From: Leucoraja erinacea | Lineage: Eukaryota | Assembly: GCF_028641065.1 (NCBI RefSeq) | Contig: NC_073398.1 | Location: 21,514,001 to 21,578,000, forward strand | DNA length: 64,000 nt | Direction of reading: 5' to 3' | In this document: positions 4,716 through 64,000 of the stretch, piece after piece | Position numbering within the stretch: the first letter of the stretch is position 1 | How the letters are laid out: each line of letters begins with the position of its first letter | Notes under the pieces: generated by a model | What the model saw: the letters and a program-made list of their open reading frames with translations, nothing else | Database searches by the model: none | Told to the model about the DNA's origin: nothing | Position numbers and translations under genes: made by a program

Positions 4716-6714
4716 ATTTATCAAGAGGGGGCAATCATCTTTGGCCCTTGTGTGAATTGAGAATTTAGGGGAATTAAATAGAATGGAAATGAAATGTGTT
4801 AGGGGACAGGTGAATGTAAAGGTCTGTGGATATGATGAGCCATGGAGGGTGGCACAGTAGTGCAGCTGGTAAAGCTGATGCCTCACAGCCCCAAAGACCC
4901 AGGTTCGATCCTGACAAGAGGTGCTGCCTGTGTGGAGTTTGCAAATTCTCCCTGTGACCGCATGGATTTTATGACCAAAAGCATAGGTCATAAAATATCT
5001 TTATTCTCCACGGAAGGACGTGTGATCTAATAATAAAATCCAATATTTTAGCAAAGGACATAAATTCTCTCAAAGGGAATTTGATAGCTGCTTTATGTGG
5101 GGACTGCTGTATGAAATGGGGACTGAGCATGACATGGGGGTTAGTCCAGTTGGCTCCTGTGGGATAAACAGCTTCCAAGAATTGGACTATTGTGACCTGA
5201 CACATTGAAATTACACAACACCAGCAGTGGAGTCTTGCAAATTCTCCCTGTGACCGCATGGATTTCTTCCGGGTGTTCCGGTTTCCTCCCACATTGCGGG
5301 ATTGTAGGTTAATTGGCCTGTGCAAATTGCCTGTAAGGCATAGGGAGTGCATGGAAAAAGTGAGATAACTGAACTGGTGTGAACAGGTCATCGACGGTCG
5401 GTGTGGACTTGTTGTGCCGAAGGGCCTGGTACCATGTTGTATCTGTTAATCAATTCAATATTTCCTGTCTGACTATTAAGTTATGGGGAAATGTGGGAAT
5501 GGACCATCCTAATCAGTTCCATCCCCCTGCCTTCTCTCCAAGTCCTGATTTTGCTTTTTAAAAAAAAATAACTGCTAATTTATTTTTGCATCAGCCATAA
5601 CTACAAAGAGATCAGTCACACTGTTATAAAAATACACAATATGTCCAAGAAGTCAATCTGCATCTGTAAAGAAATAAAAGGAAACACCATTTCATTCAGA
5701 GACCATTGACTTGAAACATAGACCCGTTTCGCTCTCCACAACTGCTACCAGAACTGTTGAATATTTCCAGTTTTCTGTTTTTATTTTTGTCTTCCAAAAG
5801 CATTTCTGCACCAATTTGGTTTTAGGCAGTCAGCTGTGTTCATTGTTCCTTTTGTCACCTGTAGTTGTTGCATTTCTGCTATTTCCATCAGTCTCTTGTA
5901 AGATGAAGTTGGCTAAAAACTAATTCCACACTGACAGCCTGAAGCTTGCTTTGTAGCCATGTCACCATGCTGTACGCAGTTTCTCAACTCCATTCCTCTG
6001 AAGTCAACAAAATTAGTTTTGGTAGTACTGAAGGCTGCTGAGATTGCTATGTAACTTTTATGAAGTATAGAGCGTTGAGGTTACTATGAAACACATCCAC
6101 CATGGGAGTGAATGTTGTGGCAATTGTAATCTTGCGAGAAGGAATTTACATTAAGCTGACATCCGACCCAAACACCACTGCTGAGAGTGCGGCAAGACTC
6201 CACTGCTGGTGTTGTGTAATTTCAATGTGTCAGGTCACAATAGTCCAATTCTTGGAAGCTGTTTATCCCACAAGAGCCATCTGGATTAACCCCCATGTCA
6301 TGCTCAGTCCCCATTTCATACAGCAGCCCCCACATAAAGCAGCTATCAAATTCCCTTTGAGAGAATTTATGTCCTTTGCTAAAATATTGGATTTTATTAT
6401 TAGATCACACGTCCTTCCGTGGAGAATAAAGATATTTTATGACCTATGCTTTTGGTCATAAAATCCATGCAGTCACAGGGAGAATTTGCAAACTCCACAC
6501 AGGCAGCACCTCTTGTCAGGATCGAACCTGGGTCTTTGGGGCTGTGAGGCATCAGCTTTACCAGCTGCACTACTGTGCCACCCTCCATGGCTCATCATAT
6601 CCACAGACCTTTACATTCACCTGTCCCCTAACACATTTCATTTCCATTCTACTTAATTCCCCTAAATTCTCAATTCACATAAGGGCCAAAGATGATTGGC
6701 CCCTCTTGTTAAAT
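4716..6714. repeat. Long inverted duplication: 523-bp arms at 4716-5238 and 6192-6714, 953-bp spacer
   Basis: The arms are reverse complements with about 9-10 substitutions by eye, and the ORF track shows mirrored peptides on opposite strands. Confidence 0.95.
4847..5460 (+). mobile_element. V-SINE interrupted by a ~265-bp insertion
   Basis: Head at 4847-4969, body resumes at ~5235; ~31-bp duplication ttgcaaattctccctgtgaccgcatggattt at both junctions. Confidence 0.85.
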
Positions 6715-14050: not shown

Positions 14051-17000
14051 TGGATTATAAAACTCACAGAATTCACAAACGACATTTATGCAAACCTAAA
14101 TAAATCGGTGGAATGGCTCTCCCTAAATTTCTTCTCTATTGCTGGGGAACTAATATTAAAAATTTAATCTACTGGATGGACGATACATGCCAACAAGTAA
14201 ACTGGTTAAAAATGGTGAGGGAAGATTGTTTGTCTTTCAATATAGGTGTGATTCTTCTCTCTCCAATACATCTGAAGAAATCAATGTATGAGATAATCCA
14301 CAGCAACTTACGAATCTGGAAACAGTTGAAATCAACCCTTAAATTGAGACATTTCTCTCTCCTCTTACCAATCGCCAATAATCCCTCATTTAAACCATCT
14401 ACTTTAGACAAGGCGTTTGTACAATGGGAAAGCCTAAGAATTAAAAAGCTGGGAGACCGTTATGAGAAGGGGACCTTCCTCCTGTTTCAAGAATTACAGC
14501 TGAAATATCATCTGAAAGGTAGTCATTACTTCAGATATCTTCAAATACGAGACTATGTGAAAATACACACGCAAGATTGTCACTCCATGGGTCCAGATAT
14601 ACCAGATGAATGCATGAACAGAAAGGCGGATACAAATAAGTTAATATCCTACTTCTATAAATACCCTTTTAAATGTACATATCCCATCGTCGGAAATAAT
14701 TAGGCGAGCATGGGAAGACGAATTGGGTTTAACAATTTCAAAGGATAGTTGGGAGGAAAGTCTTTTATATATACATTACTGTTCTCTTAATGTTAGGCAC
14801 TCCCTAATACAATTTAAAATACCGCACAGACTCTATTATTCAAAGTCTAAACTGAACAAGATCTTCCCAAATGTCTCTCCTAGCTGTGATAAATGTTTCC
14901 TCTAAGAAGCAACTATAACCCATTCCTTTGTTTCCTGCACAAAATTATAAAACTTCTGGAGGGGAATTTTTGATATATTTTCCAACATACTTAAAATGTA
15001 ATCCCGACATAAAACTGATCACACTAGGTATGTCAGAGGCCTGTTCCGAGCTAATGATATTTCAAAGACATTTCCTTAACTATGGCCTAATAACAGCAAA
15101 AAAAAATTACTTAAATTTTGGAAACAGACAATGTATTTCTACAGTGAAGATGTGGATCACAAACATGTCCGAGACGCTACATTTGGAAAATATAGGGCTT
15201 GTCTTGGCAGAAAAACCAGATCAATTTCTTAAGACATGGACACCCTTTACCGAATTCTTACAACAATAGCATGGTGCAACACAAATTTAAATTTAAATCC
15301 GATGCTGGGTTGGGTGAGGCGGGCGGAGGGGACGAGGGGCAAGGTATATCTCCACTTTTCTTTTTCTTTTTTCTTATTTCTATATCTTTCTGCCACACTA
15401 CTTTGATAGTTTAGGGGATTCTCTTTTGTTCTTCTTCAATCTATTGTAATTGTAATTTATTTATTTAGGGGACAGTGCATATTAATAAACATTTACATGT
15501 AATACGCAAGATTGTAGCCAGTAGCTAATTTCCATCTTTAGTCCCTCTGGTAAACAAGGTAAATACATCACAACACATTCAGTCAATAAGAGAAGAGACA
15601 AAACAGAAGTCAAAAACAAAACAACAAACAATAAAGTAAAAAAGTAACATTAAAAGAGTACCATAGGATAATTTTAAGGTAGATTATGATTGCAGTTTTG
15701 ATTTTGCAGTAACCATGTTTTTAGATGTTTGGTAAATGAGGTTGGCAGATCCCGTATGACGCATGGTATCGCGTTCCATGTCTGCGACGCTCGATATGAA
15801 AATACTGACTGCCCAAAGACACTTTTCCTAAACGGGACTATACAATCACCCCTGGAGGCCGCTCTTGTCGACCTATTTGTGTTTTTCTTTATGAAGTTCT
15901 TTAACGGAGGTGGGGCTAGTCCACGGAAGATTTTGTAAACCAAAATCAAGTCCGAATATTTTATTACATTTTCCCAGCTCAGCAGATCAAATTTCTTCAG
16001 GATGCTACAGTGATGGTACATTCTGGGCTTTTTGTCAAGATTTTTTAGGGCTTGTTTATAAGCAATTTCAACAGGCTTTAGTGTGGACTTACATGCCAGT
16101 GACCAAGTTGTTATACAGTAGGTCATGTATGGCACAATCATTGCATTAAAATATAGTTTGGCTGAATCAATAGTTAAATTATTTCTAATATATCTAAAAT
16201 TGGACAAATTAAATTTAATTAAATTTACTGTTCTTTTCACCTGTTGTTTGAAACAGAGCTGTGAATCGATCACGATTCCTAAATATTTTAACTCGTGTAC
16301 AATTTTAAGTTTTGTTCCATGTACAAACACATCAGGATCTCCATCAGTACTTGCCTTTTTGGAGAAAAACATACAGACAGTCTTTGACACATTAAGATGT
16401 AGATCAGAAAACTGCAACCAGTTTGACACATTAATCATAGCAGCTGATAGGTCTTGTGCAGCTTGATGTTTGTTTTTGGCATGTACATACACAACTGCAT
16501 CGTCAGCATACATCTGGCAAGTTACATTTGATGTACAGCTACTTGGTAGATCATTAATGTACAGACTGAATAATAGCGGTCCCAAGATTGAACCTTGAGG
16601 TACACCAAGAGGGTTTTTAGAAGTTGCAGATTTACTGTTGTGCACTCTAACACATTGTTTTCTCTGTACCATATATGACTCAATCCATTTCATCGTGCTC
16701 AAAGAGAGGTTAAAATAGGACAATTTGATCATCAAGATCTGGTGGTTCACAGTATCAAAGGCTTTTCGTAAATCAAGAAAAACAGCTCCCATAACACCAC
16801 CTGCATCAATTTTGGACTTCATATTTTCCAAAAGGAAGCAAAGTGCCGTCTCAGTGGAGTGAAGCCAAACTGCATTGGGTTTAGGGTATATGGACTATTG
16901 TTTAAATGTTTAATTATCTGTCCCGCAACCCATTTTTCAGCTATCTTGGAAATTGCCGGGAGAATGCTTATTGGTCTATAATTACTAATTATAGTGGGGT

Positions 17001-18179
17001 CTCCTGATTTTAAAATTAGAGTTATTACTGCAGATTTCCAAGAATTTGGGAATACACATTTGTTTATGGACTTGTTGACGATGCTGGTAATTGGAGCAAT
17101 GAGTGACTGCTTATGAGCTTTAAGAAACATTATATCCATACCAAAAGCATTTTTGGCTGAGACACTTCATTCAAAATAAGAACCGGAGAAGCAGTGTTCA
17201 GTGGCATAGCATATCGGACTGCAGAACAGGAACTATGAGTCAAGTTCTTCACAGAATCTATAAAATACGTGTTAAGGGCTGTTGCAATCTCATTTGGATC
17301 ATTAGTCAGATTTTCATTTAGTTGCAACTCCCTAATGTTCTTGTTGGTGATATTATTTCCAGTTAATTTCCTTATGTTTGTCCAAATCTCCTTAGCATTA
17401 CCTCTTGCGTTGCTAATAACATTAATAAAAAAGTTTGCCTTAGCATTCCTAATTTCTTTAGTGACTTTATTTCTAAGTGAGGTAAATATTTGTCTATTAT
17501 GTGCTGCTTTTGTTTTCAGGGATATCTTAAGGGTATGGTCTCGCTGTTTCATCAGTGACCATATTTCACTATTTAACCAGGGAAGATGATTCTTTTTCCG
17601 TGGTTTTGGTTTTATCTTTTTCATAAAACAATTCATTGTTTCTTGAATAACATTACAATTTTCATCAACGTGTTCATGGTTAAGGTGATCAGACCAGTCA
17701 ATTTAATTCAAGGCATTTTCCAGGTTTTTTGTTTCACCCTTGGGTATTCTTAGTTGCTCAGACCTTTTACTGGAGTGACAGGTGAACCTATTTTTTGACA
17801 GTTTTCTTGAAAAGAGGATCAAATTATGGTCAGAGAGACCTGTAACCATATTGTATGTTTTTTGTATTCTGTCATATTTGTTGCTGAAGACCAAGTCTAT
17901 ACATGTTTCTGATGAGCTACTTATTCTAGTAGGTCCTGTAATTAAAGATCTGATTGAACTGTGAGAGATCAAAGCTATTTGTTATTGATTTTAATCTTTT
18001 CATCATTTTCACATTCTACTTTTTTTCTTTTTTGTTCTCTTTTTCTTTTCTTTTTTCATTTTTATAATTTAGGTTATAAGGTTAAAAATGAAGCTGTACA
18101 ATAATTGTATAATTTTAGATGCTGAATGTTTTATCTCTGTACAACTGCTACTAATAAATACATAAATAAATAAATAGAG
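14051..18179 (+). mobile_element. 5'-truncated L1-clade LINE (ORF2 C-terminus plus 3'UTR) hosting a nested LINE
   Basis: Frameshifted HLCKPK*IGGMALP...FRYLQIRDY...HRLYYSKSKLNKIFPNVSPSCDKC; (TAAA)n tail at ~18153-18175; TSD attgaaacaact 14039-14050 / attgatacaact 18180-18191. Confidence 0.9.
15446..17974 (-). mobile_element. 5'-truncated L2/Crack/CR1-group LINE with a near-intact reverse transcriptase region
   Basis: 385-aa ORF with AVFLDLRKAFDTV, GVPQGSILGPLLFSLYINDL, YADD; upstream frameshifted pieces NYRPISILP and CIDLVF...SDHNLI (APE end); candidate TSD ctatt 15441-15445 / 17975-17979. Confidence 0.92.
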
Positions 18180-19192: not shown

Positions 19193-19351
19193 TTCAACAA
19201 CATAGCAAAATCTGTGAGCTGCTTCAGACACCTTGTGCAAGCTAATGTCCGAAATAAGAAGGTCCTCAAAGATGCAGTTAATCAAATACAGGCGAAAGGA
19301 ATCACTGATTATAAAAAAGGCTTTACATTTGCTTTTGAGCAGTTGATGAAT
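19193..19351 (+). CDS. CACNA2D1: CACNA2D1 exon ~11 (159 nt, VWA domain)
   Basis: ttttgctttcag|TTC...AAT|gtaagt; [53 protein letters not shown]. Confidence 0.97.
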
Positions 19352-22852: not shown

Positions 22853-22957
22853 TTCAATGTATCCCGAGCGAATTGCAACAAGATCATCATGTTATTTACA
22901 GATGGCGGGGAAGAACGAGCCCAAGAAATCTTTACAACATACAATCAGGAGAAACAA
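22853..22957 (+). CDS. CACNA2D1: CACNA2D1 exon ~12 (105 nt, VWA, MIDAS Asp in FTDGG)
   Basis: ttctttgtag|TTC...CAA|gtaagt; [35 protein letters not shown]. Confidence 0.97.
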
Positions 22958-31937: not shown

Positions 31938-32016
31938 GTGCGAGTGTTCACTTTTTCAGTTGGTCAGCACAACTACGATAAAGGGCCGTTGCAGTGGATG
32001 GCCTGCACTAATAAAG
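31938..32016 (+). CDS. CACNA2D1: CACNA2D1 exon ~13 (79 nt)
   Basis: attttag|GTG...AAAG|gtatct; [26 protein letters not shown](G); ends in phase 1. Confidence 0.97.
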
Positions 32017-32110: not shown

Positions 32111-32160
32111 GCTACTTTTTTGAAATCCCTTCCATTGGAGCAATTCGTATAAACACACAG
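32111..32160 (+). CDS. CACNA2D1: CACNA2D1 exon ~14 (50 nt), after a 94-nt intron
   Basis: attttcag|GC TAC...CAG|gtagta; (G)YFFEIPSIGAIRINTQ; phase matches the previous exon. Confidence 0.96.
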
Positions 32161-35056: not shown

Positions 35057-35149
<93 letters not shown>

Positions 35150-45364: not shown

Positions 45365-45529
45365 NNNNNNNNNNNNNNNNNNNNNNNNNNNNNNNNNNNN
45401 NNNNNNNNNNNNNNNNNNNNNNNNNNNNNNNNNNNNNNNNNNNNNNNNNNNNNNNNNNNNNNNNNNNNNNNNNNNNNNNNNNNNNNNNNNNNNNNNNNNN
45501 NNNNNNNNNNNNNNNNNNNNNNNNNNNNN
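45365..45529. other. Assembly gap (165 N)
   Basis: Run of N. Confidence 1.
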
Positions 45530-47705: not shown

Positions 47706-48144
47706 AACTCGGTCCTTCCCCACAAGAATTTCTACAAGATCCAGTGATGACTTTTGCTCTCCTGCTAATCGTGAAGGAATTTGTTTTAAACTAATTGTAC
47801 AGCTGCTAAAAATGGTTTGCCTGACCTGCTTCTTCGGCTCTCTTGTATTTATATTCATGAAGTGCAGGCTAGTTAGAACAAATTTACTCTTCATCAGTGA
47901 ACGACAATCAAATTAAAAGGGAAATAATAGAGTTCATGATACTTTATAACAATTAAATAGTTGGGCGGTTGATGAATTGCAATCATTGCAAATTGAGATT
48001 TTTGTTCATCTAAACTGGATTAGTATGTTTTTTTAAATTGGATTATTTTCACCGATATTCTAACCTGTTGCTATTTTTATGTGCATCTGTGTGTCTTATA
48101 TTCCTGTCTCTCTATATGTACCTGTCACTTTACCGTTACAATAG

Positions 48145-48213
48145 GAACTCGGTCTTGTTATCACAGGAACTCTGCCAGTCTTCAACCTAACGAAAGATGC
48201 TAGTGGAAACCAG
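48145..48213 (+). CDS. CACNA2D1: CACNA2D1 exon ~16 (69 nt)
   Basis: acaatag|GAA...CAG|gtatgt; ELGLVITGTLPVFNLTKDASGNQ. Confidence 0.95.
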
Positions 48214-49710
48214 GTATGTTTTACATTGGAGAGTGCGGTATTGTCTGCCTTTTTCAAAATATTGTGGAACAGTTTTGCTACAAAAGCTCTACTGCATATT
48301 ATACTTGGCGCTGTTATGACGTAGAGATTCTGTAAAAGACTGTTCAAATTTTCACATATCAACAAACATTTCTGCTATTTGTAGCATAACTTGAACATGT
48401 GCTGATCAGAACTTCTGCAGAAGCTGCCTTGCAGTCTTTCAACCAAACCAGGAATTAAAGAAACATTTTTACAATTACAGACTTCAGACGTGATAATGCC
48501 AAGTTGAAGATGAGCCCAAACAATGAGGACCCGGAAGGTCTCTCTTGATAGCCTTTTAATGGGTCTCATTTTTTATCCTCAGTTTAAAAGGCCATGTGGT
48601 CATACCTTCCTTCAGAGAGAAAGTTTGCCATGGTAGTCTGGTCCTCAATATGTCCTCCATGCTCCTTCACAATTTGACTCTGGCTCCAAGAACATAATTC
48701 TTGCGAGCACTTTATCTTTTCCTGTCTTTCCACCATCCTTCTTCCAGCCACCGGTGAAGGACAGTAGCTAATCCATTGGGCTTGATTGCCTGGTGATGGA
48801 ATAACCGCGGGAGTCTGCCATGAAATGTTCAACATTTCAGTGCTCACATAATGCTCAGTGTGGTTTTTAACCCTGGGGAATATGGTCGTAGCTCTCAAGA
48901 GTGCGTTTAATAGCAAGCACCATCCAGTAGTCAGTAAGAATTTCTGGTTGCTTGACATTAATCCACTAGAACTCTGGCTGAAAACCTGCCTACTTCCTCT
49001 CACAAACTACTGATAGCAAGTGAGACAAGTGAAAAACAAGCCAAAAGAGTTGCAAAAAGAGACCAAAATAGTTAATATAGATTCTATAGAAATTAAAATG
49101 AAAGAGAATGGTGAAGTAGAATACAGAGAAAAACAGTTTGCATTTTTATTGAGCCTTTAATATAGTGAATTATCGCTTGGGATAAACATATTAGAATTAT
49201 GGAATATGTTGTTCGTTCTTTTTTCATTACATCTCAGATGAAGGTTATAACTAATTTCAGTTTTGTTGTAATGGTGCAGCGCCAAGAAGATTTTAAGTAA
49301 AATCAATTTGAACTTCCCAGATCTGGCACACACCAGCTCATATTAATAACCACCTTGCGACCATGATAACTTTTTGACTCTAAAATATTTTTGTTGAAAC
49401 ATCGGAAAATAATTGTGATAGAATAGCAATAGATGAAATCTTTACAATGCTTTATGCAAGGGTGATTTGAGTTAGTTTTGTACAAAACACTCTTCACCAC
49501 ACAATGATTAACGTAAGTATCAAGGATCCTGCAGAACATTTAGATTTAAATAGCCAATGATTAAAATCATTGTTTGCCTCCATATCACTAAATATAAAAT
49601 GCCGAATGCTTATATAAATATATATAAAAGTGAAATAAATGAACATTGTGTAAGAGATAATATTTTTTTGGAAATATATTGAACGGTATTTTGACCATCT
49701 GAACTTTCAG

Positions 49711-49785
49711 AACCAGTTGATTCTTGGCGTAATGGGCATTGATGTATCTCTAGCTGATGTAAAGAGGCTCACACCGCGTTACACT
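49711..49785 (+). CDS. CACNA2D1: CACNA2D1 exon ~17 (75 nt)
   Basis: actttcag|AAC...ACT|gtaagt; [25 protein letters not shown]. Confidence 0.96.
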
Positions 49786-49882
49786 GTAAGTATAGTTCGG
49801 AGATCCGCTCAGGACATTCGGCACTCCATTTAACCCTGCCTCTGAGTTATTGCATGGCATTGTGAAGATACTGTATGTTGGC

Positions 49883-50180
49883 TTTAGTTTAGTTTAATTT
49901 AGAGATATGACACGGTAACAGACCCTTTGGCCCACCAAGTCCGCTCTGACCAGCGATCCCCACAGTTTAACACTATCCTATACACACTAAGGACAATTTA
50001 CAACTATACCAAGCCAATTAACTGACAAACCTGTATGTCTTTTGAGTGTGGGAGGAAACCGGGGAAAAACTCACGCAGGTCACGGGGAGAACGTACAAAC
50101 TCTGTAAAGACAGCACTCGTAGTCAAGATTGACACGGGCCTCTGGCGCTGTAAGGCAGCACCTCTAGCTCTGCGCCACCG
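49883..50180 (-). mobile_element. HE1-like V-SINE
   Basis: Reverse-complement SINE from the ttagtttag tail to ctgcgccaccg. Confidence 0.85.
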
Positions 50181-51304
50181 AGCTGTCCCCTGTGCAGAAG
50201 TGGGTAAGTGCCAGCAAATTTTGGATTTGCATGTTTGAATGTGCAAGCCCCAAACTTCCTGGTTGTTAGTTGCCAATCATTCCTGGACTGTGGCCAAGTC
50301 TTGGCAATTCCCCAGCGCTAACATTAGAGAATCTGGCAGCTGGTTCCTACTGTAGGAACAGCATCCTCCATCAGTTCAATGGTCTCCAATGGACTAAAGT
50401 AGTTCTTAACTCATATACTTTATTTTTCATTGAATTTATTTAAACATTTGTTTTCGTTTCCGGTGTTTGGAAACTAATCATTGAAAAAAGAGTTATTTTG
50501 CTTATTCCTGGATGATCTTGATGGAAGAATCATGTCTGAGCCAGGGATGTGGTTTAATAGTCCAGTTTTTGTCATATTGTCCAGCAATTTGGTGGCCTTT
50601 ACTCTGCAACTTGCCCCATTCTCACCACACTGTTTCCATTATCCCCCATCCCACCTGCCACAGCAGGCCCATCCATGGTAGGGAATGGGATGAGGAGCTA
50701 TTGGCTAGGAAATTACATCTGATAAATGCGGACCTAATGGTGAGCATAGGTGCCTCACCATTGACCAGAGTATTTAGTCCATAATGGATCAGGTTTCCTG
50801 CCCATGATCATTGTCTTGCTGCCTGTTTTATACATTGTATCTGCGAGTTTCTGCTTTATACACAGACCTTCTATCCAGTGGGCTACATGTTGATGCTTCT
50901 GAAGAAAATATAATTGCATTATCTTCAGAGTAGGTTTACATCAGTAAATGGTTCAAGTAATGAATAGAATAGCTAATTCAACGTTTAAAATACTTCACTT
51001 GAAAATTATATCAAATGTTTAATGGATTTGCCGTTATAATTCAGAGTCGGCTTTGCTCGCATACTGAATGTGCACTAATTACTTTAAATTTGATAGGTAA
51101 TTATACTTAATTATAGTTATACCACATTGGCATAAAGACAGTCTAAACATCCAGAAGTTCAGCTATAATCTTCTGAAAGTGTATGCTTGCACACTAGTAA
51201 CGTACCACTGTATACTAATGAAATGTAAATCTGCATTTTTTGTTGAATAACATTACAGTAATTTAAATATTTTCTTTAAATTTGCATAAAATCCATGATA
51301 TTGA

Positions 51305-51451
<147 letters not shown>

Positions 51452-52897
51452 TGAGAACCTTCTAGCTCAGGCTTTTAAGAAGACAGTGACTTGTAATGAA
51501 ATCATTAAAATGGTAGCATGCTAGATATTTATTGATTTTGGTTATTTGACACTCACCACTTGCTATTCAGATCAATAACTATTGTGTGACTGTGATAACC
51601 CTTTGACACTAAAATATTTTTTTTGTAACATTGGAACATAATTGTAATACAACAACATGAGATTACATTTTTATTGTGCTTTACTTGAGGGTATAACCTG
51701 GTGATTTGATTTAGATTTGTGCCAAATACTCTTAACCACACAATGATTAATATAAGTATCAGGGGTCATAGAGACCATTTAGATTTAAATAGCCAAGATT
51801 AGGTTCCATTTTTATTTGAACAGGTATTTAGTTGGCTGCAAAAAGAAAATGACCACATTTGCACCTTTACTTTGAATTGGCCTTCATCTGTCAAAATTAT
51901 TTAATGCAACTTCTGTGTAATTGCCTATTAGCCTAGTTTGATGCTGGGTGGAATTTTGGAAGCAGGGCAATAATGTGATCTTGTTCTCGTAAAATATCCA
52001 GCTGAACGTGCTGAGTTAATTGTGAAGATGACTGTATTATGTATAAGCCGCGATTATTAATAATGTGGCACCTCTGTAATGATAATAGTTTAACCTATTT
52101 AGAAATGTATGCTCTACTTGTTTCTAACTGGTTCTTTTTCCAATTAATCTTATCAGAATAGTACCTTCTGATATATTTTGGATATTCTCAATTAACCACT
52201 CTGTGCTATATTGTATAATATCAAGGCAAACATGATAAATGATATGTGCAGAATATAAAGATGAATGGAACTTAACACTTTTGTGGAAGTTTTATTCTGC
52301 GTAAATAATAGGAATATGAGTTATAAGGAATAAAAGGTTTTAACTATTGTACTGATGTGAAGAAAGTAAATCTGTGGAGATCAGTGCAAATCTGTGCATA
52401 TCTCACAACAGTGTTGTTGTGTTACAATGTGGAAGCCAGGAGTCCTCTGGGTGTCAAATGCTGACTCCCCTGATATTTTGCTGGAGGTTATTTGAATCAG
52501 ATTGCTAACTTGGAAATAAAAGGTAAGTAGACAGAACATTATTAAGTATATTTTGAAATAATAAATTTATATTTTTTATCAATGATTTTTAAATTATCTA
52601 ACTTAGTTTCAACTGTGTTTTGATGTCTCTTGTCAAAGGAGACATTTAGGAAGAGTTGAAAAGGTCTTTGATAAAGACCATCAGGCCACTCTGGAAACAA
52701 GGCCACGTGATCCACCAACTGAGATTGAGTCAGTGCTTGCGAGCACTCGGCTTAGCGAGGATAGACACAGCAGTGAAACCTGTATGTTGTTTGCACAGCC
52801 AGAGCAGGTTAATGTGGCCGCTGAGATAACATGGGGAGTGAGTTCAAGGGATGAGACTGGTCCTGAACTGGACAGAAATGAACATGGGTGAATACAA

Positions 52898-53485
52898 AGA
52901 TAGACACAAAGTGCTGGAGTAACTCAGCGAGTCAGGCAGCATCTCTAGAGAAAATGGATAGGTAGCGTTTCTGGTCGGGACCTTTCATCAGAGTGAATGT
53001 AGTGGGGGGGGGGGGGGGACTGGAAGTAAGACAAAAAGCAGCACAATTTGGGGCCGACAACAGCTGACCTCAGGCAAAGGAGGTTCCCTGATAGGCTGAT
53101 TGTTTGCTAGTGACAGTCTGAGCTCAAGAGAGATATATAGTTGTGAACTGTACAACTGGTTAAAGGAGAAAGATCGGGTGAAGGAGGAGGTGTTTGTAGT
53201 AGTTACCTAAAGTTGGAGAATTTAACTTTCATACTGTTGGGTCGCAAGCTACCCTAACAAAATATGAGGTTCTGTTCTAATTTGTGTGTGGCCTCATTCT
53301 GGCAATGGAGGAGGCCCAAGACTCTGTGGGAATTGGAAGGGGAGTTAAAGTGGTTAGCAACCGGAAGATCCAGTAGGCCTTGGTGGACCAATGCAAGTAT
53401 TCAACAAAATGGTAATCAAGTCGACACTTTGCCTCGCCGATGTACAGGCCCTAATGGGAACACCGGATACAGTAGGTAAATCGAT
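52898..53485 (-). mobile_element. Penelope-like element 3' fragment: GIY-YIG endonuclease remnant followed by the LTR
   Basis: Minus-strand translation with frameshifts: GLYIGEAKCRLDYHFVEY...DLPVANHFNSPSNSH...LGLLHCQNEATHKLEQNLIFC*GSLRPNSMKVKFSNFR*, then the same LTR as the short repeats (52898-52995). Confidence 0.88.
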
Positions 53486-56400
53486 GCAAATACATTGGAA
53501 AAAACTGAGTACAAACTTTGTGGAAATGACATTGTACGAAGACATTTAAAAAAAAAAGCCAGTTTTTCCCCCCCATTTGGTAAAATTCCCAACAGAAATG
53601 TTGAAGTGTTTCTGCAGTTTTGCCAGTTTGCTTGTCATGCTACATGTCAGAGAGGCTGCTGAAGGAAACTCCTTCCAGAGTTAAGTGTACAGTAAACACA
53701 TCTGACTGTCATTAACTAGCAAACTAATAGTGGAGCGAGGTAACTGGAATTATGTACTGACTTGAAAGCTTCAATTTTATTTTTTCACTAGAAATTTATT
53801 CATATACCTAAATTAATCCAGTTCATATCATACAAGGAGGTGAGCATGCCTGAGTGTGTGAAATACTTAATAGAAAGATTGCTTTTCCTAAGAGAGTAAT
53901 AATTAGGGATTGAAATTTGCCAAACTTAAAGGTAAATAATATATCATCACAAAAGTAAGTTTCACAAATAATTCCACTGCTGTGATTGATATCAGGCATT
54001 GATACTTGGGAGATAGAAAAAAAAACACTTTAATACTACTTCAGAAGCCCATGGATGCACGAAGAATTGGTAAAGGTCCATCTCTGTCAGGGAAGGACTT
54101 ATCCCTTTTATGCCACCTTGCTCCAAACTCATCGGTGAAAAATTAATATTGGGAAGCACGGCTAAAAAACGCTGAACAAACATCAGCTGTGTGCACTGGA
54201 GAATTCTGCCCATAAATTCTGAATCTTATTGAGTGGCTTATTAGATAGTCATTATTCTGGCTTATGCAGTCAACCGTAATTTCACCTGCTTGTCTGATTT
54301 TGTTTTGCTCACCTTAGGAAGTTAATAAATCTTTCATCGTTGCAATTTATAACACCACTTGTGTGGCGTCTAAAGTGTGGAATTGTTTCTCATCATTCCG
54401 GTCCTCAGACATCACCACCCTTTCAGTTTTGAAGTCCCCGTGTAATTGTTACCAGAGCAACAGCACCTCTTTCAATCTCAACGAAAATTAAACTGTCAAG
54501 GCTGCTTCTACAGCTACATTTATCTGAAATGTTGCCAATTCATCCAACACTTTCCTCCAGCTTCATATGGATTTGTCATGCATTTAATACAGTAGGCAAA
54601 CTGAAATGTTCAAGCTTAAATCCTAGACAGTGCTCATTCTTTAATCTTCTTTGTCAAATTGCTGCAGATATGAGGACAAGCTTTTTAATCAAATATCCTC
54701 CTGTCCTATTTTCTCACACCCTGTTTTCACATTTCCATATCAGAGGTTTATACAACATCCTGAAATCACAATCCTTCAGCCGCTGTAAAATGACATTCCA
54801 CTGGAATATATACTTTATGGTAAATCTATTGATAAGCAAACTCAGCACAAATTATTTCAATGTGTCCTATGTATGAACCACCATCACTTATGGTCTGTTT
54901 GCAAAACATTTGACAGCATGAAACATTTTTTAAAATAATTGGTCACCAGTGATTTTTCAGCAGAAATCTCTCTCAGTACACTTGTGTGGTCATTAAACAT
55001 TTAAATATTTTGAATATTTTAGTTTCAAATTTTATTTGGCAAATATTAAATTGCTATAATTATATGATATTATTTTATATTTATGCATATATAAAATATG
55101 TTATTATTATTATTATTTCACATTTGTCATACACGTAGTTGGAATTTGCCTGGTATTTGTTCATGTGCTCCTGAAGAGTTTAATTTAAATAGGCATTAAT
55201 TTTGCAAGCAGTGGCAAAGTGACTGCACCCGCTGCTAAAATCACAGATCTCGTGATTGCTACGGCACCAATTTCTCTTTCCCCCAACTGTAATTATGATG
55301 CCATGAAGCCGACCGTGTGATTAAATATGTTGAAGATTTTGCACAGGCAGCACAGCAGGAAGGAAAAAGCACAATATTTGACTCACACTTTGAGCACTTT
55401 GAGTGTGTAAAATAAAAAAATGAACGTGCACGTTAGATTAAGGTACAACTCTCATTCTTTAAGATTATATAATTATAATCTGTGAAATAAATTTGATGGA
55501 ATGCTAATCTGCATAGACATGAAATTAATTTCTTGGGAGCAAGACAAAATTGCCAAGCAGTATATCAGTAAAAATCCCAGCTCATGCAAGAAAACATAAC
55601 TTTTTCAGGCTAATTGACAGGGACCATTGCTAAATACCGGGACACTGATTGCAGTGGGGACTGTTGAAGAAGAGCTAGTCTACAGAGAAACACTTCATTG
55701 CTGACAGCAGCTTTGGGATTTCTGGGTTGAACTCCACATACACACAGTCCCCCGAACTTGCTGTCAGTTCCACGGTGTCATGACGGCACATTATTCCGAA
55801 TGTAAAATGTGAGCCAATTATATTTTCATCATTTTCAAGTTAGGTCTGAATTATAGGGAGTTAATGAGCAGTTCAAATTGGGTCCAATTACATATTCAAC
55901 ATTTAATCTAAACTGTTTCTGTCAGTATAAACAAAACCTGTGACATTCTGCCAAGACCTCTCATTCTTTGAATATATTTATACTTTTAGAATTGTGTTCA
56001 AGTTTGGAGCTCAGTGCACTGCACTGGGGTATGGTATAGGGCATGGTCTGATTGTTGATGGTTGCAATACCTTTTATTTAAGGATAAGCTGAATAATGAA
56101 TATTTGAATAATGCAAGCTTCAGGCAACGGCAGTAATTCATGTGTCCTTTATGTTAAATGGGGATGATCAGCCATGGTCACACTGAATGGCGGTGCTGGC
56201 TCGAAGGGCCGAATGGCCTGCTGCTGCACCTTTTGTCTATTGTTATAAAAATAATAAATAAATACATTCACTGGGAGTTCTGGTTCTTGCAACCATTAAA
56301 AGTGTTTAAAATGTGCTCATTGGCTTTTACAATGGAAATTTAAACAGTTAAAAAGAATCAGCAATCCAGATTGAGAAGCAGATGAATTGAAGGGGAGGAC

Positions 56401-58954
56401 AAAACATCAGTCTGTTCTTAGACTTCCAGATCACGAGTGTCAGTGCCTGACCATGGCAAGGCATGTTAATGAAATATGAACCCACTAATACACCAAAAAA
56501 AAGGTGACATTCACGAAACAAACTATTTGTTATGAATTAATTATGCGGACTTCATTAATGCCTGATTCATAAAATCTTCTAACTTTCATTTTACAAAAAT
56601 GAGTTGCTGTGTTTTCAAGGCAAATTTCAATCCCTATGATTAGTCAGTAGTTCCGATACAGCTATCAAAGTCTATTTTAGATTTCTATAGAGTTTATACA
56701 TTGTTTGTTTAATCCATGACCTCTACAATCACACGATCAAACTATATTGAGTGGGGTGAGCTCCACCACCACTCCCCCAGGTTCTGTTTCCATTATTTCA
56801 GGCATTAAGCCAACAAGTTTATGAGCACCGATTAAGCCGGAGGCAGAAATTAACAATAAATGTTGGAGATGAATTAAACCAACATTTATTTTCTCTGTGC
56901 AATATTCTGCTGTTTAAACATTCCAACCTTGATAAGTGGAATTAATTTTCCTGACTCGTGTGTTTGTAAATCAACATCGTATGTTTTGTGTGAGCGTGCA
57001 GATGTGTTATGTAGAAGTGTTGATAAATCGAGTGTTCAATACTAAATGGTTAATGAGACTAAATTACAATTTCAATCTATCCTTGCCAAACTTTTGAGGT
57101 CATTAAACCACTCTGTACTCCATTTCCTTTTCTCGTCAATATACAAAGAAAAAAGCTCCCTCATAAATAACAATGTGAATTAAATGCAGTACAAAGATAA
57201 AATCAATTAACTCAAACAATTCTACAGCAATTATCACAACCATTTCTAAAGAAGCAGCTAAAGTTACAAATTTTGCCCAGAAACACAGTTGTAAACACTT
57301 TTTTCGTCTGATCTTTATTTTTAAGAGATTATTTAAAGAGATGATCAATTGAATAAGGGGGAGGTGGGGGGGGGGTTCCTCCTCACTGCCAAATGAATGG
57401 AAACATGGGGCCAACTCTATTTGCCATTTAGTTCTGAACAGTCAGGGCAAAGATGTGTGATCCGGAGATAGAAATAGAAGTAACCTGACATTTCAACAAT
57501 TCAATTACATCATAAACTGTGTGTTTACTTTTCAAATGGCAATCTTCATCTCAATTTAAACTTGATTGGACAACTTTGCTTGAAAATGTTCAATTCTTAA
57601 GTTGCAAACAATGTTAATGTTCATCATTGGAATTAGAAAATAAGCATACTGAATGTTCTAGATATATGTTGAATATGTTTGTACTTACATTGGTTTGTTA
57701 AAGATGCTGTAAGTTAGGCAGTTGCCGGGTAATTTTAAAGTGAGTAGATGGTTAGCATTCTGTTTGATGCAAATGATGGTTTGTGGTCCAGAACTACAAG
57801 CAAACACTTTCAACATTTCAATTACTCTGGAATGTTGATTTTTTTTTTTTTCTTTTCCCCTCATTCATCTATACAACCCTACTAATTGTAATAATGCCAC
57901 TGAAAATATATGTCTCTTTCTTTGTTAACAATCGATACCTTCAACTTTTTAGTTGCGAAGTGGTAGAATTTCATTGCAGAATGCCCACCATTCTTCCATC
58001 TTTTTGGGGCAGTCTTTTCTTAAAAACTTGCAATAATGATCGACTTTGGAGCACAATCAGAAGTTTGATAGGACATTTTATACCTCAGCATGTTAACAAA
58101 CCTTAATCAATGGCAGGATCCAGTAACCTCTTGGCAAGTGAAACTTTTTTTGATCACCTGTAAAGTGTGTTGAGACAAAATGGCAAAGGTAGAGAGATCC
58201 TATCATCGAGGACGATTATCATTCAAGGCTGGTAAACTGGGACCTGATTCTGATATCGGTGCAGTACTTGCCTCAGTGAGTAGACCCAAGCTCAGTTCAA
58301 AATTGGCTCCTGGGCCTCACGATTTAGGCAAGTTGTTATTTTTTTTCTGTCTGCAGAAGGAGCAAACATTGCTTTCAGCAAATTTCAGGCAGTGGTCCTT
58401 GGGGAAGAATCAGGAGCTAGTGGCTGGACGGTTGGTAATGAGATGTGCACTGATTATCACTAAGGTCTCATTGAACTAGGAAGAGTGCCACTGATTTTAT
58501 ACAAGATATTTAATTTATTGGCCCTTTTACTCTGCCTGTACAACTGAATTACCCTCTCCGAGGCAGTATTGAACTGTTATCATCATTTTCACACTACTGA
58601 CGCCTACAACTCAGCCATTGGGAGTCATTCGCAACTTTGAAAAAATAGTTCAAAACAGTCTCAGGTCAGGCATCTTGCGAGAATCTTTTTGTACAAAAAA
58701 TAAAGGCAGGAATAGGGAGGCCATTCACTCCTTGCCCATTCTTGTCATTCTTGTCTTGTTAGCTTTAGGATTTAATCACTTGATTTGCAAGCCAGAGATA
58801 ATTAATCTTGGGTTTGTGTTACATTTAAACCCAATTCTCCATGGGAATAGAATGAAGGTATATCTATAATACAAAGCAAAACATATTTAAATGTAAATTA
58901 ATTATTCTCCAGTGCAGCAGTGACTGAATTTCACAAACTCTCTTTACAAAGTGC

Positions 58955-59320
58955 GGGGCAGTGGTAGAGTTGCTGCCTTATCACGCCGGAAACCCAGTTG
59001 TGATCCTGTGCGAACAACACGTCCATGCCTTTATTTTAAAACAAATCTGGGTTTTTTTAAATGAAAATGTTTCTGCTATCCCTCAGTATTGTTACTCAAT
59101 ACTGAGGGATATAATTACTCAGGTTTGGTATGTTCTCCCCATGACCTGCGTGGCTTTTCTCTGAGATCTCCCACACTCCAAAGACATAGGTTAATTGGCT
59201 TGGTAAAAATGTAAATTGTCCCTAGTGTGAGTAGGATAGTGTTAATGTGCAGGGATCGCTGGTTGGTGTGGAGTCAGTGGGCCGAAGGGCCTGTTTCCGC
59301 GCTGAATCTCTAAACTAAAA
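58955..59320 (+). mobile_element. V-SINE with a templated insertion at 59007-59122
   Basis: Head gcagtggtagagttgctgcc...gatcc; body resumes gtttggtatgttctccccatgacc; tail ctctaaactaaa. Confidence 0.85.
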
Positions 59321-59482
59321 CAAAAATTAATACTTGCAGTAACGAGGATGATTTCAAAGGATCAATGTGGACTTACTCAGACATCCCATATTGACAACTG
59401 GACTGCATTTTAGCCATTGAAATACATTTCATGTTGATTGGTGTTATAATAACGCAGCAATATTGCTTTTTTATTACCTCAG

Positions 59483-59539
59483 TCAATTGGTGTCGAGATC
59501 CCAAAGGTTAATTTAAGAGAGAGACATCCGAAGGCACAG
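59483..59539 (+). CDS. CACNA2D1: CACNA2D1 alternative cassette exon 18a (region A) homologue, 57 nt
   Basis: ttttttattacctcag|TCA...CAG|gtaacg; SIGVEIPKVNLRERHPKAQ (19 aa, phase 0-0), aligning without gaps to mammalian PIGVGIPTINLRKRRPNIQ as recalled. Confidence 0.9.
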
Positions 59540-60005
59540 GTAACGTGGTGACAATAACAGTGGTGCTGCAAAGCTGCCAGGATTGAAGCTTTAGGAAAAG
59601 AGGTTTGGCAGGCTGATGTGCAAGGGCCGAACAGTGATACTGGCTACCGAAACAATATATGAGCATGACTTTCTAAATGCCTCAATGATAACTAATCTAT
59701 TTTATTAGTTTAGAGCTAACATATGAGATAGTGGCTCTCTTAGCTGCTCTGTTTGGACACAGTACGAGCTTAAAAATAAAGTTAATATTAAAGATTACAA
59801 TGGATGGTTTGCAGATATAGAAAAGTGGTTGGTTTTGCCTATGACAGGTGCTGTCAATGGTTTACCGTGGACACTGCATGCATTCCTTGCATTTGTCTGA
59901 TGACCAGGGCACACATCCCTGTGTGATGATAAAATGATGGACAGTTATTTTTCTGCTGCAGGCTTGTTTGGACAGCCCATCATTGTCATTTTCCATAGCA
60001 TGACG
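59540..60005 (+). promoter_or_regulatory. Candidate intronic splicing enhancer downstream of exon 18a
   Basis: GCATG 59663-59667, TGCATG 59875-59880 and GCATG 59998-60002 (RBFOX); ACTAAT 59691-59696 and CTAAC 59716-59720 (QKI-type); YGCY motifs near the donor (MBNL). Confidence 0.5.
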
Positions 60006-60754
60006 TTTTCCTGGTAAATGCCGCTCGAACAGATGGAAAGCTGCAGCAACTAACTGTTAAAACAAGTATATTTGGCAACGAAAGAGTTAACTGTTGCTTT
60101 AAAACGTAAATAATGCCTTACCTTTTGAATTGTTCTCAATGTATAACAAGTATTTCTACACTTTTTCCTCCATGTATATCTAAATTGTAAATTTTTCTTC
60201 TCCGTTTGAGAGATCCATTTGGACGATGTATCAACATCTAACGTCATTGCTGGTTTTTAATCACCTATGTTGAATTATTTAATTTCCCACTTTACCTGCT
60301 TCTGATCAGTGAACTCTTCCCAAGGATAATGCTCGAAAGAGCACCCGTGGTGTCTTAAGTCCTGTTCCACTGAATAAACAATCTGTGGACATTGCACTTG
60401 TTCTGCCTGTGGACAAGTACCTGTTCTGCATTTCCTAAAATCTCTAATGGTCTAATTGTAATAAGGTGTTCCTGGAGTGGAAACTGTGAACCAGAACCAT
60501 GTTACACTGTGCTGTCTCATAACCATATGCCAGAGAGACTGCCCCAAGGGTGTAAACTATTGAATTAGTAGCATATGATAAAATTAGTTCGGCAATAATG
60601 GTAAATTCTTACAGATTTTTTTGTGAACAAAGGTGAAATTTAAACCAGATTTGTACCCATGAAAGTGGAATTGAAGCTATTCATTCATCCTTGATAATCG
60701 TCTGCAAAATAACCTTGTTTTCATTCTGAATATTATTGAATACATTACTACCTG

Positions 60755-60756
<2 letters not shown>

Positions 60757-60822
<66 letters not shown>
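60757..60822 (+). repeat. (CA)33 microsatellite
   Basis: Perfect dinucleotide run. Confidence 0.98.
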
Positions 60823-60825
<3 letters not shown>

Positions 60826-61936
60826 GGCTTGTCCATTTTAAAATAATGTAATTAGTAATGGAATGGGTACATTTCTTCTGTATGGAGAACAAAATTAACG
60901 ATTTTGTAATCTGCATTTCCAGACCATATTTCCAAACTCATTTACCATGCTACTATCCTTGAAATTTAAGAAATGTAGCTATGAAAAGTTAGTATAAAGG
61001 CTTGTGCCAATATTTCTTTGTCAGATATTCATCACGATGTCATACTCATTTGCAGTCCAAAGCACTTGCACGAAATTTGGTGCAAGTTGATGCAAAAGAG
61101 CAAGGGCATGTGGAACTTAAATGCTATCACCTGAAATGCTTTGAATCCTTCCATTTAATGTGATATCTTCTATTGATTTAGTTTGTTTTTGATGTGCTGT
61201 TTGTGTTGGCTTTCTGTAGGTGTTCCTTTGAAGTACTTGCATGGGTGTGTTGTGCAAGATGGCAATATAAGCTTGCTGCCTGTTGTTGATACCTTTTTGA
61301 TGTTATCATTGATTAACTGAAGTACAGTGGAAGATGCTGAGGAATCTGCAATACATTTCTGATAATGCACTGGAGGCTCCTGCCATGGAACTCACTCATT
61401 TAGGAATTTCATATTAACTAAAAAATAAACTGTAATGGGCATTAAATTCATTTACCAATAGATGATTGCAAGTGGCTGCAAACATCTCGTGATATTCAGT
61501 CCATTTGGAGTTGAATGTGTAAAAGTGAATAAAACATTTATCCAACACTCACTTCATGTCAAAGCCAGTAGCCAAACGCACATTTTAACCTCTATGTATT
61601 TCCAAATCTAGTTTTCACTATTCTTTCCCCACTCCAGTTGCCATGGAAAGGTTGGAGGCTCCTCTTCCCGAGACTAAATTTTAGGCATGAAAACTTATGA
61701 AGACACAAGAGGCCGCAGATGCTGGAATCTTGAGCAAAAACAAACTGCTGGAAGAAATCAGCGGGTGAGGCAGCATGTGTGGAGGGAAATGGACAGATGA
61801 CGTTTCGGGTCTCGTGGAGTGTCCAGACTGACCTGAAATGTTGTCTGCCTGTACCAAAACCTGTGCCTCAAAAATCTCACTAAATATTTCAACATGTAAT
61901 CCAGTTGAAACCCCCTGAAAGATGGACTTCTTAAAT

Positions 61937-62740
61937 CAAGAGTCAAGAGTCAAGAGTCAATTTAATTGTCATTTGGACCCCTGGAGGTCCAAACGAAATG
62001 CCGTTTCTGCAGCCATACATTACACACAAATAGACCCCAGACACAACATAATTACATTTTACATAAACATCCATCACATAGCTGTGATGGAAGGCCAAAA
62101 AAACTTATCTCTCCACTGCACTCTCCCCCCCCCGATGTCAGAGTCAAAGTCAAAGCCCCCGGCTGGCGATGGCGATTGTCCCGCGGCCATTCCAGCCGCG
62201 CGGGGCAGTGGTGTCAGGCCCCGCTCCAGGAGCTCTTCAACCCCGCAACACGGGCGGGAGAATTCGCCGTTGCAGGAGCCCCGAAAAGCGGTCTCCCTCC
62301 AGGGATCCGCGGGCTCCCGGTGCCGCCGTCCGCAGACCTGAAGTAGCAGTTCGCATCAGCAGCCTCAGCGCATCAGCAGCAGCAGCGGCAGTGGCAGCAG
62401 CAGCAGCAGCGCTCCTCCACCGCTCCACCCGCTCCGGTCTCGGCCAGCTCCGCGACGGCAACGGTGAGTCGGCACCAGAGTCCCCGGCTTCTTCCCGTTG
62501 GAGGCCGCTCCTCGTTGCGGCCTCAACGACACCTGAGACCCGACGAGAAAAGGTCGGGTCTCCAGTGCAGGGAGAGATTCAAAATGTTTCCCCCCCCCCT
62601 CCCACCCCCCCACCCCCATCCCCCCACACACACACCCCAACATAAAATAACAAAAACTACATAAAAACACAGACAAAAAATAATAAAACGCGGACAGGCT
62701 GCAGAGGCCGCTGCTGGCCAGAGCCGCGCCGCCTACCGGA
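61937..62740 (-). mobile_element. GC-rich non-coding retro-element (family copy 2)
   Basis: TSD ttaaat 61931-61936 / 62741-62746; (CAAGAGT)n tail; homologous to 25424-26426; internal (GCA)n run. Confidence 0.82.
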
Positions 62741-63616
62741 TTAAATGCATTGTTCTAAAGATTGCAGAGGATCGATCAAATCTTCACCAGACGTGACATA
62801 CTCTGTAGTTATACTGTGGGGTGGAATAAGAAAAATAAGCAGTGGACTAATATAGAACCAGCTTAAGGATGACCAGGGGTGAAGTCATTTTCTCTTGATT
62901 GTTTTATATCCGAACATGTGCGAACAATACGTCCATGCCTTTATTTTAAAACAAATCTGGATCTTTTTAAATGAAAAAATTTCTGCTATCCCTCAGTATT
63001 GATTCCACTAATAATTACTCAGTTTCTTACTTCCTCTCTTTTTACAACAAGATTCTTTTAATCTTTTGCCAGCAATTCTCTGGCTAAGGATCATTGGAAA
63101 GAAAAATGGTGATCAAGCTTTTGTAATTGATTTTTTTTAGTACCCTCAGGTACTGTTCATCCGTACCTGGTGATTTATCCACTTCCAAAGATCCAGAACC
63201 ACATTACCCTTTCTTTTTTATGAATCGTACATTAAAGCAGACATCCCGTCCTATCCTAAGCCACATTGAAGTGGCTGACAGGATGTTATTATTATGCAGT
63301 AGCACTGATCTGCAGTTTTGCTCTAAACTGCTTGTTTCTGCCAAATTGGCCATATTATGTTTCACACGGTGTCAATGCAGTGCAGTGCAGTGAACAGCAG
63401 TGGATAGCTGCAAATGGGATGTGAATTGGAACTGCATGTTATTAGGGTTCTCTCTCAGCTTAACCCAACTTTCTCCATGCTTTGTCTGATATAAATGCAC
63501 ACCGGAGTATACCCACTGTTATCCCTCACGTAACACCCCAGGCTACAGTCATCTCCCACTCGCATACACCTTTGCTCAGGTGAGGAGGAAGCTGAAGCTG
63601 AGGACAAAGCTTTGCT

Positions 63617-63751
63617 GTGTAGGAAGGAACTGCAGATGCTGGTTTAAACTGAAGATAGACACACAATGCTGGAGTAACTCAGTGGGTCAGGCAGCATCTC
63701 TCAATAGGTAATGTTTCAGGCCGAGTGCTCTCTTCAGACTGTTTAATAGAT
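63617..63751 (-). mobile_element. Short Penelope-LTR-derived element
   Basis: TSD agctttgct 63608-63616 / 63752-63760; degenerate hammerhead core. Confidence 0.72.
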
Positions 63752-64000
63752 AGCTTTGCTATTCAGATATTCAGAGGAAATTGAAAACATTTTTTTTAAT
63801 GTTCATTAAATCACCTTAAAACATTTAATGGAAAATAATTTGAAATACATAAAACAAAATAAGAGTTACGTAATATAAATATAATTATCTACCACATTTT
63901 ATTGTTCAAAAACCACCATTAAAATGAAAGACCAAACTAACGCCATATGTAATAGGTTTGGGATCAGAGAGGCAATTTCTCTGTGACATGGAGTCCAGTT

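What the first reader, a model, noticed from the sequence alone, without database searches (positions are those of the whole stretch)
59483..59539. Homologue of the muscle-specific exon 18a in a cartilaginous-fish CACNA2D1
Seen: a 57-nt phase 0-0 exon with good splice sites, 8 kb downstream of exon 18 and too short for the ORF track, encoding SIGVEIPKVNLRERHPKAQ. Known: mammalian alpha2delta-1 region A is a 19-aa skeletal-muscle cassette (PIGVGIPTINLRKRRPNIQ). Inference: the alternative exon dates to at least the jawed-vertebrate ancestor and may be missed in annotation. The mammalian basic cluster RKRR reads RERH here and G is replaced by E, so the strongly cationic patch is not shared.
Basis: partly seen in the sequence, partly recalled or inferred. 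Interest (0 to 1): 0.7.

Follow-up and report, generated by a model that had tools for sequence, protein, structure and literature searches.

The report
Skate copy of muscle exon 18a
A real 57-base optional exon of the calcium-channel subunit gene CACNA2D1 in a skate, already present in public gene models and shared with mammals, so it is ordinary; it is likely used mainly in skeletal muscle as in mammals, which was not shown for the skate.

Summary
The exon is real: 59483-59539, AG and GT ends, phase 0-0, 8,073 nt after exon 18. It is the orthologue of mammalian exon 18a (region A): same 57-nt length after a 75-nt exon, 11 of 19 residues identical to rabbit, and by far the best of 166 candidate stretches in the intron. 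It is not missed in annotation. All nine window exons match RefSeq Leucoraja erinacea isoform X1 letter for letter; 2 of 6 listed isoforms include the exon and 4 skip it. Public models of chimaera, sharks, rays, bichir, sturgeon, gar, coelacanth, lungfish and tetrapods also carry it, so a jawed-vertebrate origin holds; jawless fish remain open. Charge loss is partial (net +2 against +4) and varies by lineage (manta +4, gar +2). Muscle-specific use in skate is inferred; the read test was too shallow. Side result: none of 119 informative teleost proteins carried region A, while sturgeon, gars, pike, salmonids and a catfish have a second, unrelated basic insert at the same junction.

The parts
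59483..59539 (+). CACNA2D1 cassette exon 18a (region A), 57 nt, phase 0-0, 19 aa
   Evidence: identical to residues 539-557 of L. erinacea X1
59458..59482 (+). polypyrimidine tract and AG acceptor of exon 18a
59540..59880 (+). GT donor and downstream intron with YGCY (59564, 59575, 59678, 59745, 59836), GCATG (59663), ACTAAY (59691) and TGCATG (59875): candidate MBNL, RBFOX and QKI sites; weak, post hoc
   Evidence: motif-to-protein assignments recalled
51335..51409 (+). exon 18 (75 nt), upstream partner
49711..49785 (+). exon 17 by counting back from exon 18
48145..48213 (+). CACNA2D1 coding exon
35057..35146 (+). CACNA2D1 coding exon
32111..32160 (+). CACNA2D1 coding exon (start approximate)
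31938..32016 (+). CACNA2D1 coding exon (start approximate)
22853..22957 (+). CACNA2D1 coding exon
19193..19351 (+). CACNA2D1 coding exon (VWA domain)

Best explanation
This is the skate orthologue of CACNA2D1 cassette exon 18a, an in-frame 57-nt exon that public gene models include or skip and that is likely spliced in mainly in skeletal muscle, likely under MBNL control as in mammals. Shown: exon anatomy, orthology, and models with and without it. Known from mammals: inclusion adds 19 residues to a loop of the first double-Cache domain of alpha2delta-1, gives the muscle form (+A+B without C), depends on MBNL1/2, and does not change gabapentin affinity or protein level. Inferred: in skate the insert forms the same muscle-specific extracellular loop, likely a contact surface for a muscle partner (Cav1.1 or a matrix protein). 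Its working core is likely the hydrophobic N-terminal half plus R12, R14 and P16 rather than total positive charge.
For: Splice signals and frame. Human and mouse exons are also 57 nt after a 75-nt exon and before a 72-nt exon with a 15-nt alternative acceptor (supplementary tables of PMC5538435). All nine window exons match L. erinacea X1 letter for letter; 2 of 6 listed Leucoraja and 2 of 8 listed Amblyraja isoforms include it. Of 44 distinct 19-mers from chimaera to mammals, G3 and P16 are invariant, P7 and Q19 are kept in 42, R14 in 41, R12 in 39, while position 13 is K in 34 and position 15 is R in 33. Muscle use in rat: PMC3988960 passages and section 3.3. Loop position: PMC9901441 passage. 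Inclusion falls from 0.59 to 0 in Mbnl1/Mbnl2 double-knockout mouse muscle and is 0.15 in congenital myotonic dystrophy against 0.72 in the comparison muscle.
Against: No junction read joining 51409 to 59483 was listed in three RNA runs; exon depth was under 2 and repeat-derived reads crowded the tables. The RefSeq isoforms are predicted models and their tissue support was not seen. Downstream YGCY count (5 in 300 nt) is exceeded by 2 of the 8 other window exons (6 and 7), so motif support is weak. Rat heart has minor A-containing variants, so 'muscle-specific' is not absolute. PMC9901441 states that the role of region A is unknown, so the contact-surface step rests on conservation alone.
Confidence: 0.78

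Rival explanations
1. Real alternative exon, but in skates not restricted to skeletal muscle (also heart, brain or electric organ, or developmentally switched).
For: No tissue data for skate obtained. Rat heart carries some A-containing forms. Regulatory motifs are not clearly enriched.
Against: Peptide, length and phase are conserved with the mammalian muscle exon. Most listed skate isoforms skip it.
Confidence: 0.15
2. The insert works through its positive charge (for example binding sulphated glycans or acidic lipid), and skates have a weakened version.
For: Amniote versions examined are mostly net +4 to +6; skate is +2 with two acidic residues. Ray-finned fish have a second, strongly basic insert at the same junction.
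Against: Net +2 also occurs in chimaera, bamboo sharks, gar and Pelobates, while manta is +4. The invariant positions are G and P, not basic residues. I found no passage giving region A a charge-based role in the papers searched.
Confidence: 0.2
3. Vestigial or rarely used exon, put into gene models by protein homology rather than by transcripts.
For: No junction reads seen. 10 of 21 cartilaginous species examined had no listed isoform with it.
Against: Intact splice sites and frame; 11 of 19 identity to rabbit; present in 11 of 21 cartilaginous species with lineage-specific substitutions and constant length.
Confidence: 0.04

Closest known systems
Mammalian CACNA2D1 exon 18a / region A (called exon 19 in PMC5538435)
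   Same: 57 nt, phase 0-0, follows a 75-nt exon 18, precedes the region-B alternative acceptor, 11 of 19 residues identical to rabbit, cassette behaviour in models.
   Different: Upstream intron 8,073 nt against 3,707 (human) and 2,380 (mouse); G5E, K13E, R15H, T8K, N17K; net +2 against +4; tissue pattern and MBNL dependence untested in skate.
Leucoraja erinacea RefSeq alpha2delta-1 isoforms X1 (XP_055509060.1) and X6 (XP_055509066.1)
   Same: 19 of 19 identical; the other eight window exons are also identical to X1.
   Different: None seen.
Region A of other cartilaginous fish (Amblyraja, Narcine, Mobula, Chiloscyllium, Hemiscyllium, Scyliorhinus, Pristiophorus, Callorhinchus)
   Same: 19 aa, same position, mostly H at position 15.
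   Different: E5 only in the two skates and the sawshark; Mobula keeps K13 and net +4; Scyliorhinus canicula keeps R15.

Membership tests
CACNA2D1 (alpha2delta-1) gene | Host exons match alpha2delta-1 rather than a paralogue | tested here: met
   182 of 182 residues over six exons identical to L. erinacea alpha2delta-1; exon 18 hits 13 alpha2delta-1 PDB sequences at about 3e-11
exon 18a / region A | 57-nt phase 0-0 exon directly after the 75-nt exon 18 | tested here: met
   human and mouse coordinates
exon 18a / region A | Peptide homologous to mammalian region A | tested here: met
   11 of 19 identical to rabbit; score 52.0 against next best 6.8 of 166 candidates
exon 18a / region A | Followed by exon 19 with alternative acceptor B | tested here: met
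   Exon 19 lies beyond the window; shown from protein models only: Leucoraja isoforms with and without the 5-aa B segment
exon 18a / region A | Cassette (included and skipped forms) | tested here: met
   2 of 6 listed Leucoraja isoforms include, 4 skip; predicted models, not confirmed by reads here
exon 18a / region A | Inclusion mainly in skeletal muscle | tested here: inconclusive
   Three RNA runs of unstated tissue, 1-5% of each read, no exon joints listed
exon 18a / region A | MBNL-dependent inclusion | not testable with these tools
   Motif count only, not distinctive

The most novel reading that the evidence does not exclude
Exon 18a is a jawed-vertebrate muscle cassette that teleost fish lost, while a second, unrelated polybasic cassette just upstream of it (sturgeon, gars, pike, salmonids, catfish) arose in ray-finned fish and was kept. 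The two exons would be a natural experiment on what this loop of alpha2delta-1 does, possibly tied to the decline of Ca2+ current through fish muscle Cav1.1.
Probability: 0.4. Interest if true: 0.45.

Novelty: already known. Interest (0 to 1): 0.2.

Why it matters
The skate exon itself adds little: it is already in RefSeq models. The comparison has some use because the function of region A is stated to be unknown (PMC9901441) and the exon is mis-spliced in congenital myotonic dystrophy (PMC5538435). Conservation across jawed vertebrates points to G3, P7, R12, R14, P16 and Q19 as residues to test first, and away from total charge. The apparent teleost absence, if confirmed in genomes, would matter for zebrafish models of muscle splicing disease.

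Tried and rejected
No whole genome is held for this window, so exon 19 and other genomes could not be read as DNA. No RNA holder was listed by the run index. Laying three RNA runs and one DNA run on 47900-59800 was inconclusive: reads were dominated by dispersed repeats and no exon joint was listed. In run X24 the bases laid in the four exon-bearing bins equal about 2.9, 4.4, 3.4 and 2.0 exon lengths, which would fit a few spliced reads, but some intronic bins have similar depth, so I do not count it as evidence. An AlphaFold model of L. erinacea X6 from a 17-row alignment failed (mean pLDDT 32.7) and was not used. A profile of the second ray-finned insert found nothing in 51410-64000 (best 3.6 bits against 15-46 for leave-one-out controls); a weak candidate at 56802-56861 with a poor donor was rejected. 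Jawless fish: only two hagfish models labelled CACNA2D2 were found, without an insert, which does not test CACNA2D1. A tight link between teleost absence and non-conducting Cav1.1 is doubtful: osteoglossiform models (Scleropages, Arapaima, Paramormyrops) also lack A although PMC5538450 says that order lacks the blocking substitutions. Two look-ups of earlier scan findings returned nothing.

Full report
Observation. Exon 18 is 51335-51409, 75 nt, ending on a codon boundary, so the exon is phase 0-0 and lies 8,073 nt downstream. Among 166 open AG..GT phase-0 stretches of 45-75 nt in 51410-64000 it scores 52.0 against four non-cartilaginous region A peptides; the next best scores 6.8. A PDB search returned 11 hits of 177,635 sequences, all alpha2delta-1 at region A, each with a weak E-value of 1.2-1.7. 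Identity to the rabbit chain shown there is 11 of 19.

Host gene. A tblastn with an Amblyraja protein placed nine CACNA2D1 exons on the + strand between 19193 and 59539 and none for exon 19, which lies beyond the window. All nine match RefSeq Leucoraja erinacea isoform X1 (residues 305-557) letter for letter. Over six exons identity is 182 of 182 to Leucoraja and 180 of 182 to Amblyraja. The window is therefore little skate or a near-identical relative (inference).

Annotation status. XP_055509060.1 (X1) and XP_055509066.1 (X6) contain the 19-mer exactly; 4 of the 6 listed Leucoraja isoforms skip it, one of them also lacking region B. The suggestion that the exon is missed does not hold here. 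Among 21 cartilaginous species examined, 11 had at least one isoform with region A; 9 had none among those listed and 1 (whale shark) lacked a readable exon 18. Lists were partial (at most 15 members per cluster), so those absences may be sampling, annotation gaps or loss.

Orthology and age. Supplementary tables of PMC5538435 (5 files searched, 1 not searched; rows seen) give the human and mouse exon as 57 nt after a 75-nt exon and before a 72-nt exon with a 15-nt alternative acceptor, matching the skate layout. Region A occurs in public models of chimaera, sharks, rays, bichirs, sturgeon, paddlefish, gar, coelacanth, lungfish, amphibians, reptiles, birds and mammals. An origin at or before the jawed-vertebrate ancestor follows. 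Jawless fish are untested: the only ones found were two hagfish models labelled CACNA2D2, without an insert.

Charge. The skate peptide has 4 K/R and 2 D/E (net +2); the common mammalian form has 4 and 0. Manta is +4 with G5 and K13; chimaera, some bamboo sharks, gar and Pelobates are +2; the birds and reptiles printed are +4 to +6. Across 44 distinct 19-residue versions G3 and P16 are invariant, P7 and Q19 are kept in 42, R14 in 41 and R12 in 39, whereas K13 (34) and R15 (33) vary; 17-residue squamate versions and four caecilian and turtle proteins that the pattern missed were not in this count.

How it likely works. From mammals: region A is cassette exon 18a, the muscle form is +A+B without C, minor A-containing forms exist in rat heart, and A does not alter gabapentin affinity or protein level (PMC3988960, passages and section 3.3; PMC5043047, passages). 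A and B sit in a loop of the first double-Cache domain and their importance is stated to be unknown (PMC9901441, passages). Inclusion drops from 0.59 to 0 in Mbnl1/2 double-knockout muscle and is 0.15 in congenital myotonic dystrophy against 0.72 in the comparison muscle; the switch begins between E15.5 and birth (PMC5538435, passages and supplement rows). A passage of PMC7913682 lists a Cacna2d1 event as responding to Mbnl dose, without naming the exon. For skate I infer the same: MBNL-promoted inclusion in muscle, giving an extracellular loop that likely contacts a muscle partner. Support in the skate DNA is weak. The 300 nt after the donor hold 5 YGCY, 1 GCATG and 1 ACTAAY, a combination seen in 21 of 1,255 overlapping bins but chosen after the fact, and 2 of the 8 other exons have more YGCY. 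The read test gave no exon joints and the structure model failed.

Side result in ray-finned fish. Of 116 teleost proteins, 113 had a readable exon 18 and none had region A; 6 more also lacked it (0 of 119). A search aimed at region A with the paddlefish sequence listed 120 of 155 hits and none was named as a teleost; 35 were not shown. Zebrafish was not in the sample, bowfin also showed 0 of 5, and no genome could be checked, so loss is suggested, not shown. Nine teleost proteins (salmonids, pike, Silurus), one sturgeon and three gar proteins, and one unnamed protein carry an unrelated 18-21 aa basic insert at the same junction (14 in all). One alligator gar model has it directly upstream of region A. 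No fetched cartilaginous or tetrapod protein matched its start pattern, and a profile found no copy in the skate intron within the window. Euteleost muscle Cav1.1 conducts no Ca2+, while shark and sturgeon channels do (PMC5538450, passages), which invites a link, but osteoglossiform models also lack A, which argues against a tight one.

Literature. Ten searches were run; from listings and the passages named above I saw no paper on the phylogenetic depth of exon 18a, on its teleost status or on the second insert. The library lacks most subscription journals and bioRxiv supplements are closed, so this is no proof of absence. The MBNL, RBFOX and QKI motif assignments are recalled.

Verdict. A correct observation of a known, already annotated exon. 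Interest 0.2. The teleost absence and the second insert are the only leads worth a follow-up.

Noticed in passing
proteins P0173 (Acipenser), P0574, P0580, P0576 (gars), P0296, P0343, P0346, P0347 (salmonids), P0351, P0352 (pike), P0359, P0367, P0368 (Silurus), P0466 (unnamed): A second, unrelated 18-21 aa polybasic insert right after exon 18 in ray-finned fish, upstream of region A in one gar model and usually without region B; likely another cassette exon. No copy found in the skate intron within the window.
   Followed up: partly
teleost alpha2delta-1 proteins: 0 of 119 teleost proteins with a readable exon 18 carry region A; bowfin 0 of 5; the gar version has lost most basic residues. Possible loss in teleosts, not checked in genomes.
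   Followed up: partly
P0122 residues 135-146 (L. erinacea X1), outside the window: Another optional 12-aa basic segment near the N-terminus, present in X1 and X4 and absent from the other four listed isoforms.
   Followed up: no
P0250, P0263, P0264, P0269 and others (lizards, snakes): Region A is 17 aa instead of 19 in several squamates.
   Followed up: no
window:4716-5238 and 6192-6714: Near-perfect 523-nt inverted repeat (98%), 953 nt apart, in an intron; a recent duplication or an assembly artefact.
   Followed up: no
window:8328-8534: 77-nt arm inverted repeat with a 53-nt spacer (94%), possibly a small DNA-transposon-like element.
   Followed up: no
window:41050-44200, 14100-14900, 16800-18000: Broken LINE-like open frames in introns, judged by eye from translations; high-copy short repeats near 50000-50170, 52900-52950, 56160-56230 and 59190-59320 that are abundant in RNA reads.
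   Followed up: no
window:51449-51454: A TGCATG element about 40 nt after the exon 18 donor, in the intron upstream of exon 18a.
   Followed up: no
window:3597-3760 and 45365-45529: Two runs of N (164 and 165 bases), neither within the intron upstream of exon 18a.
   Followed up: no
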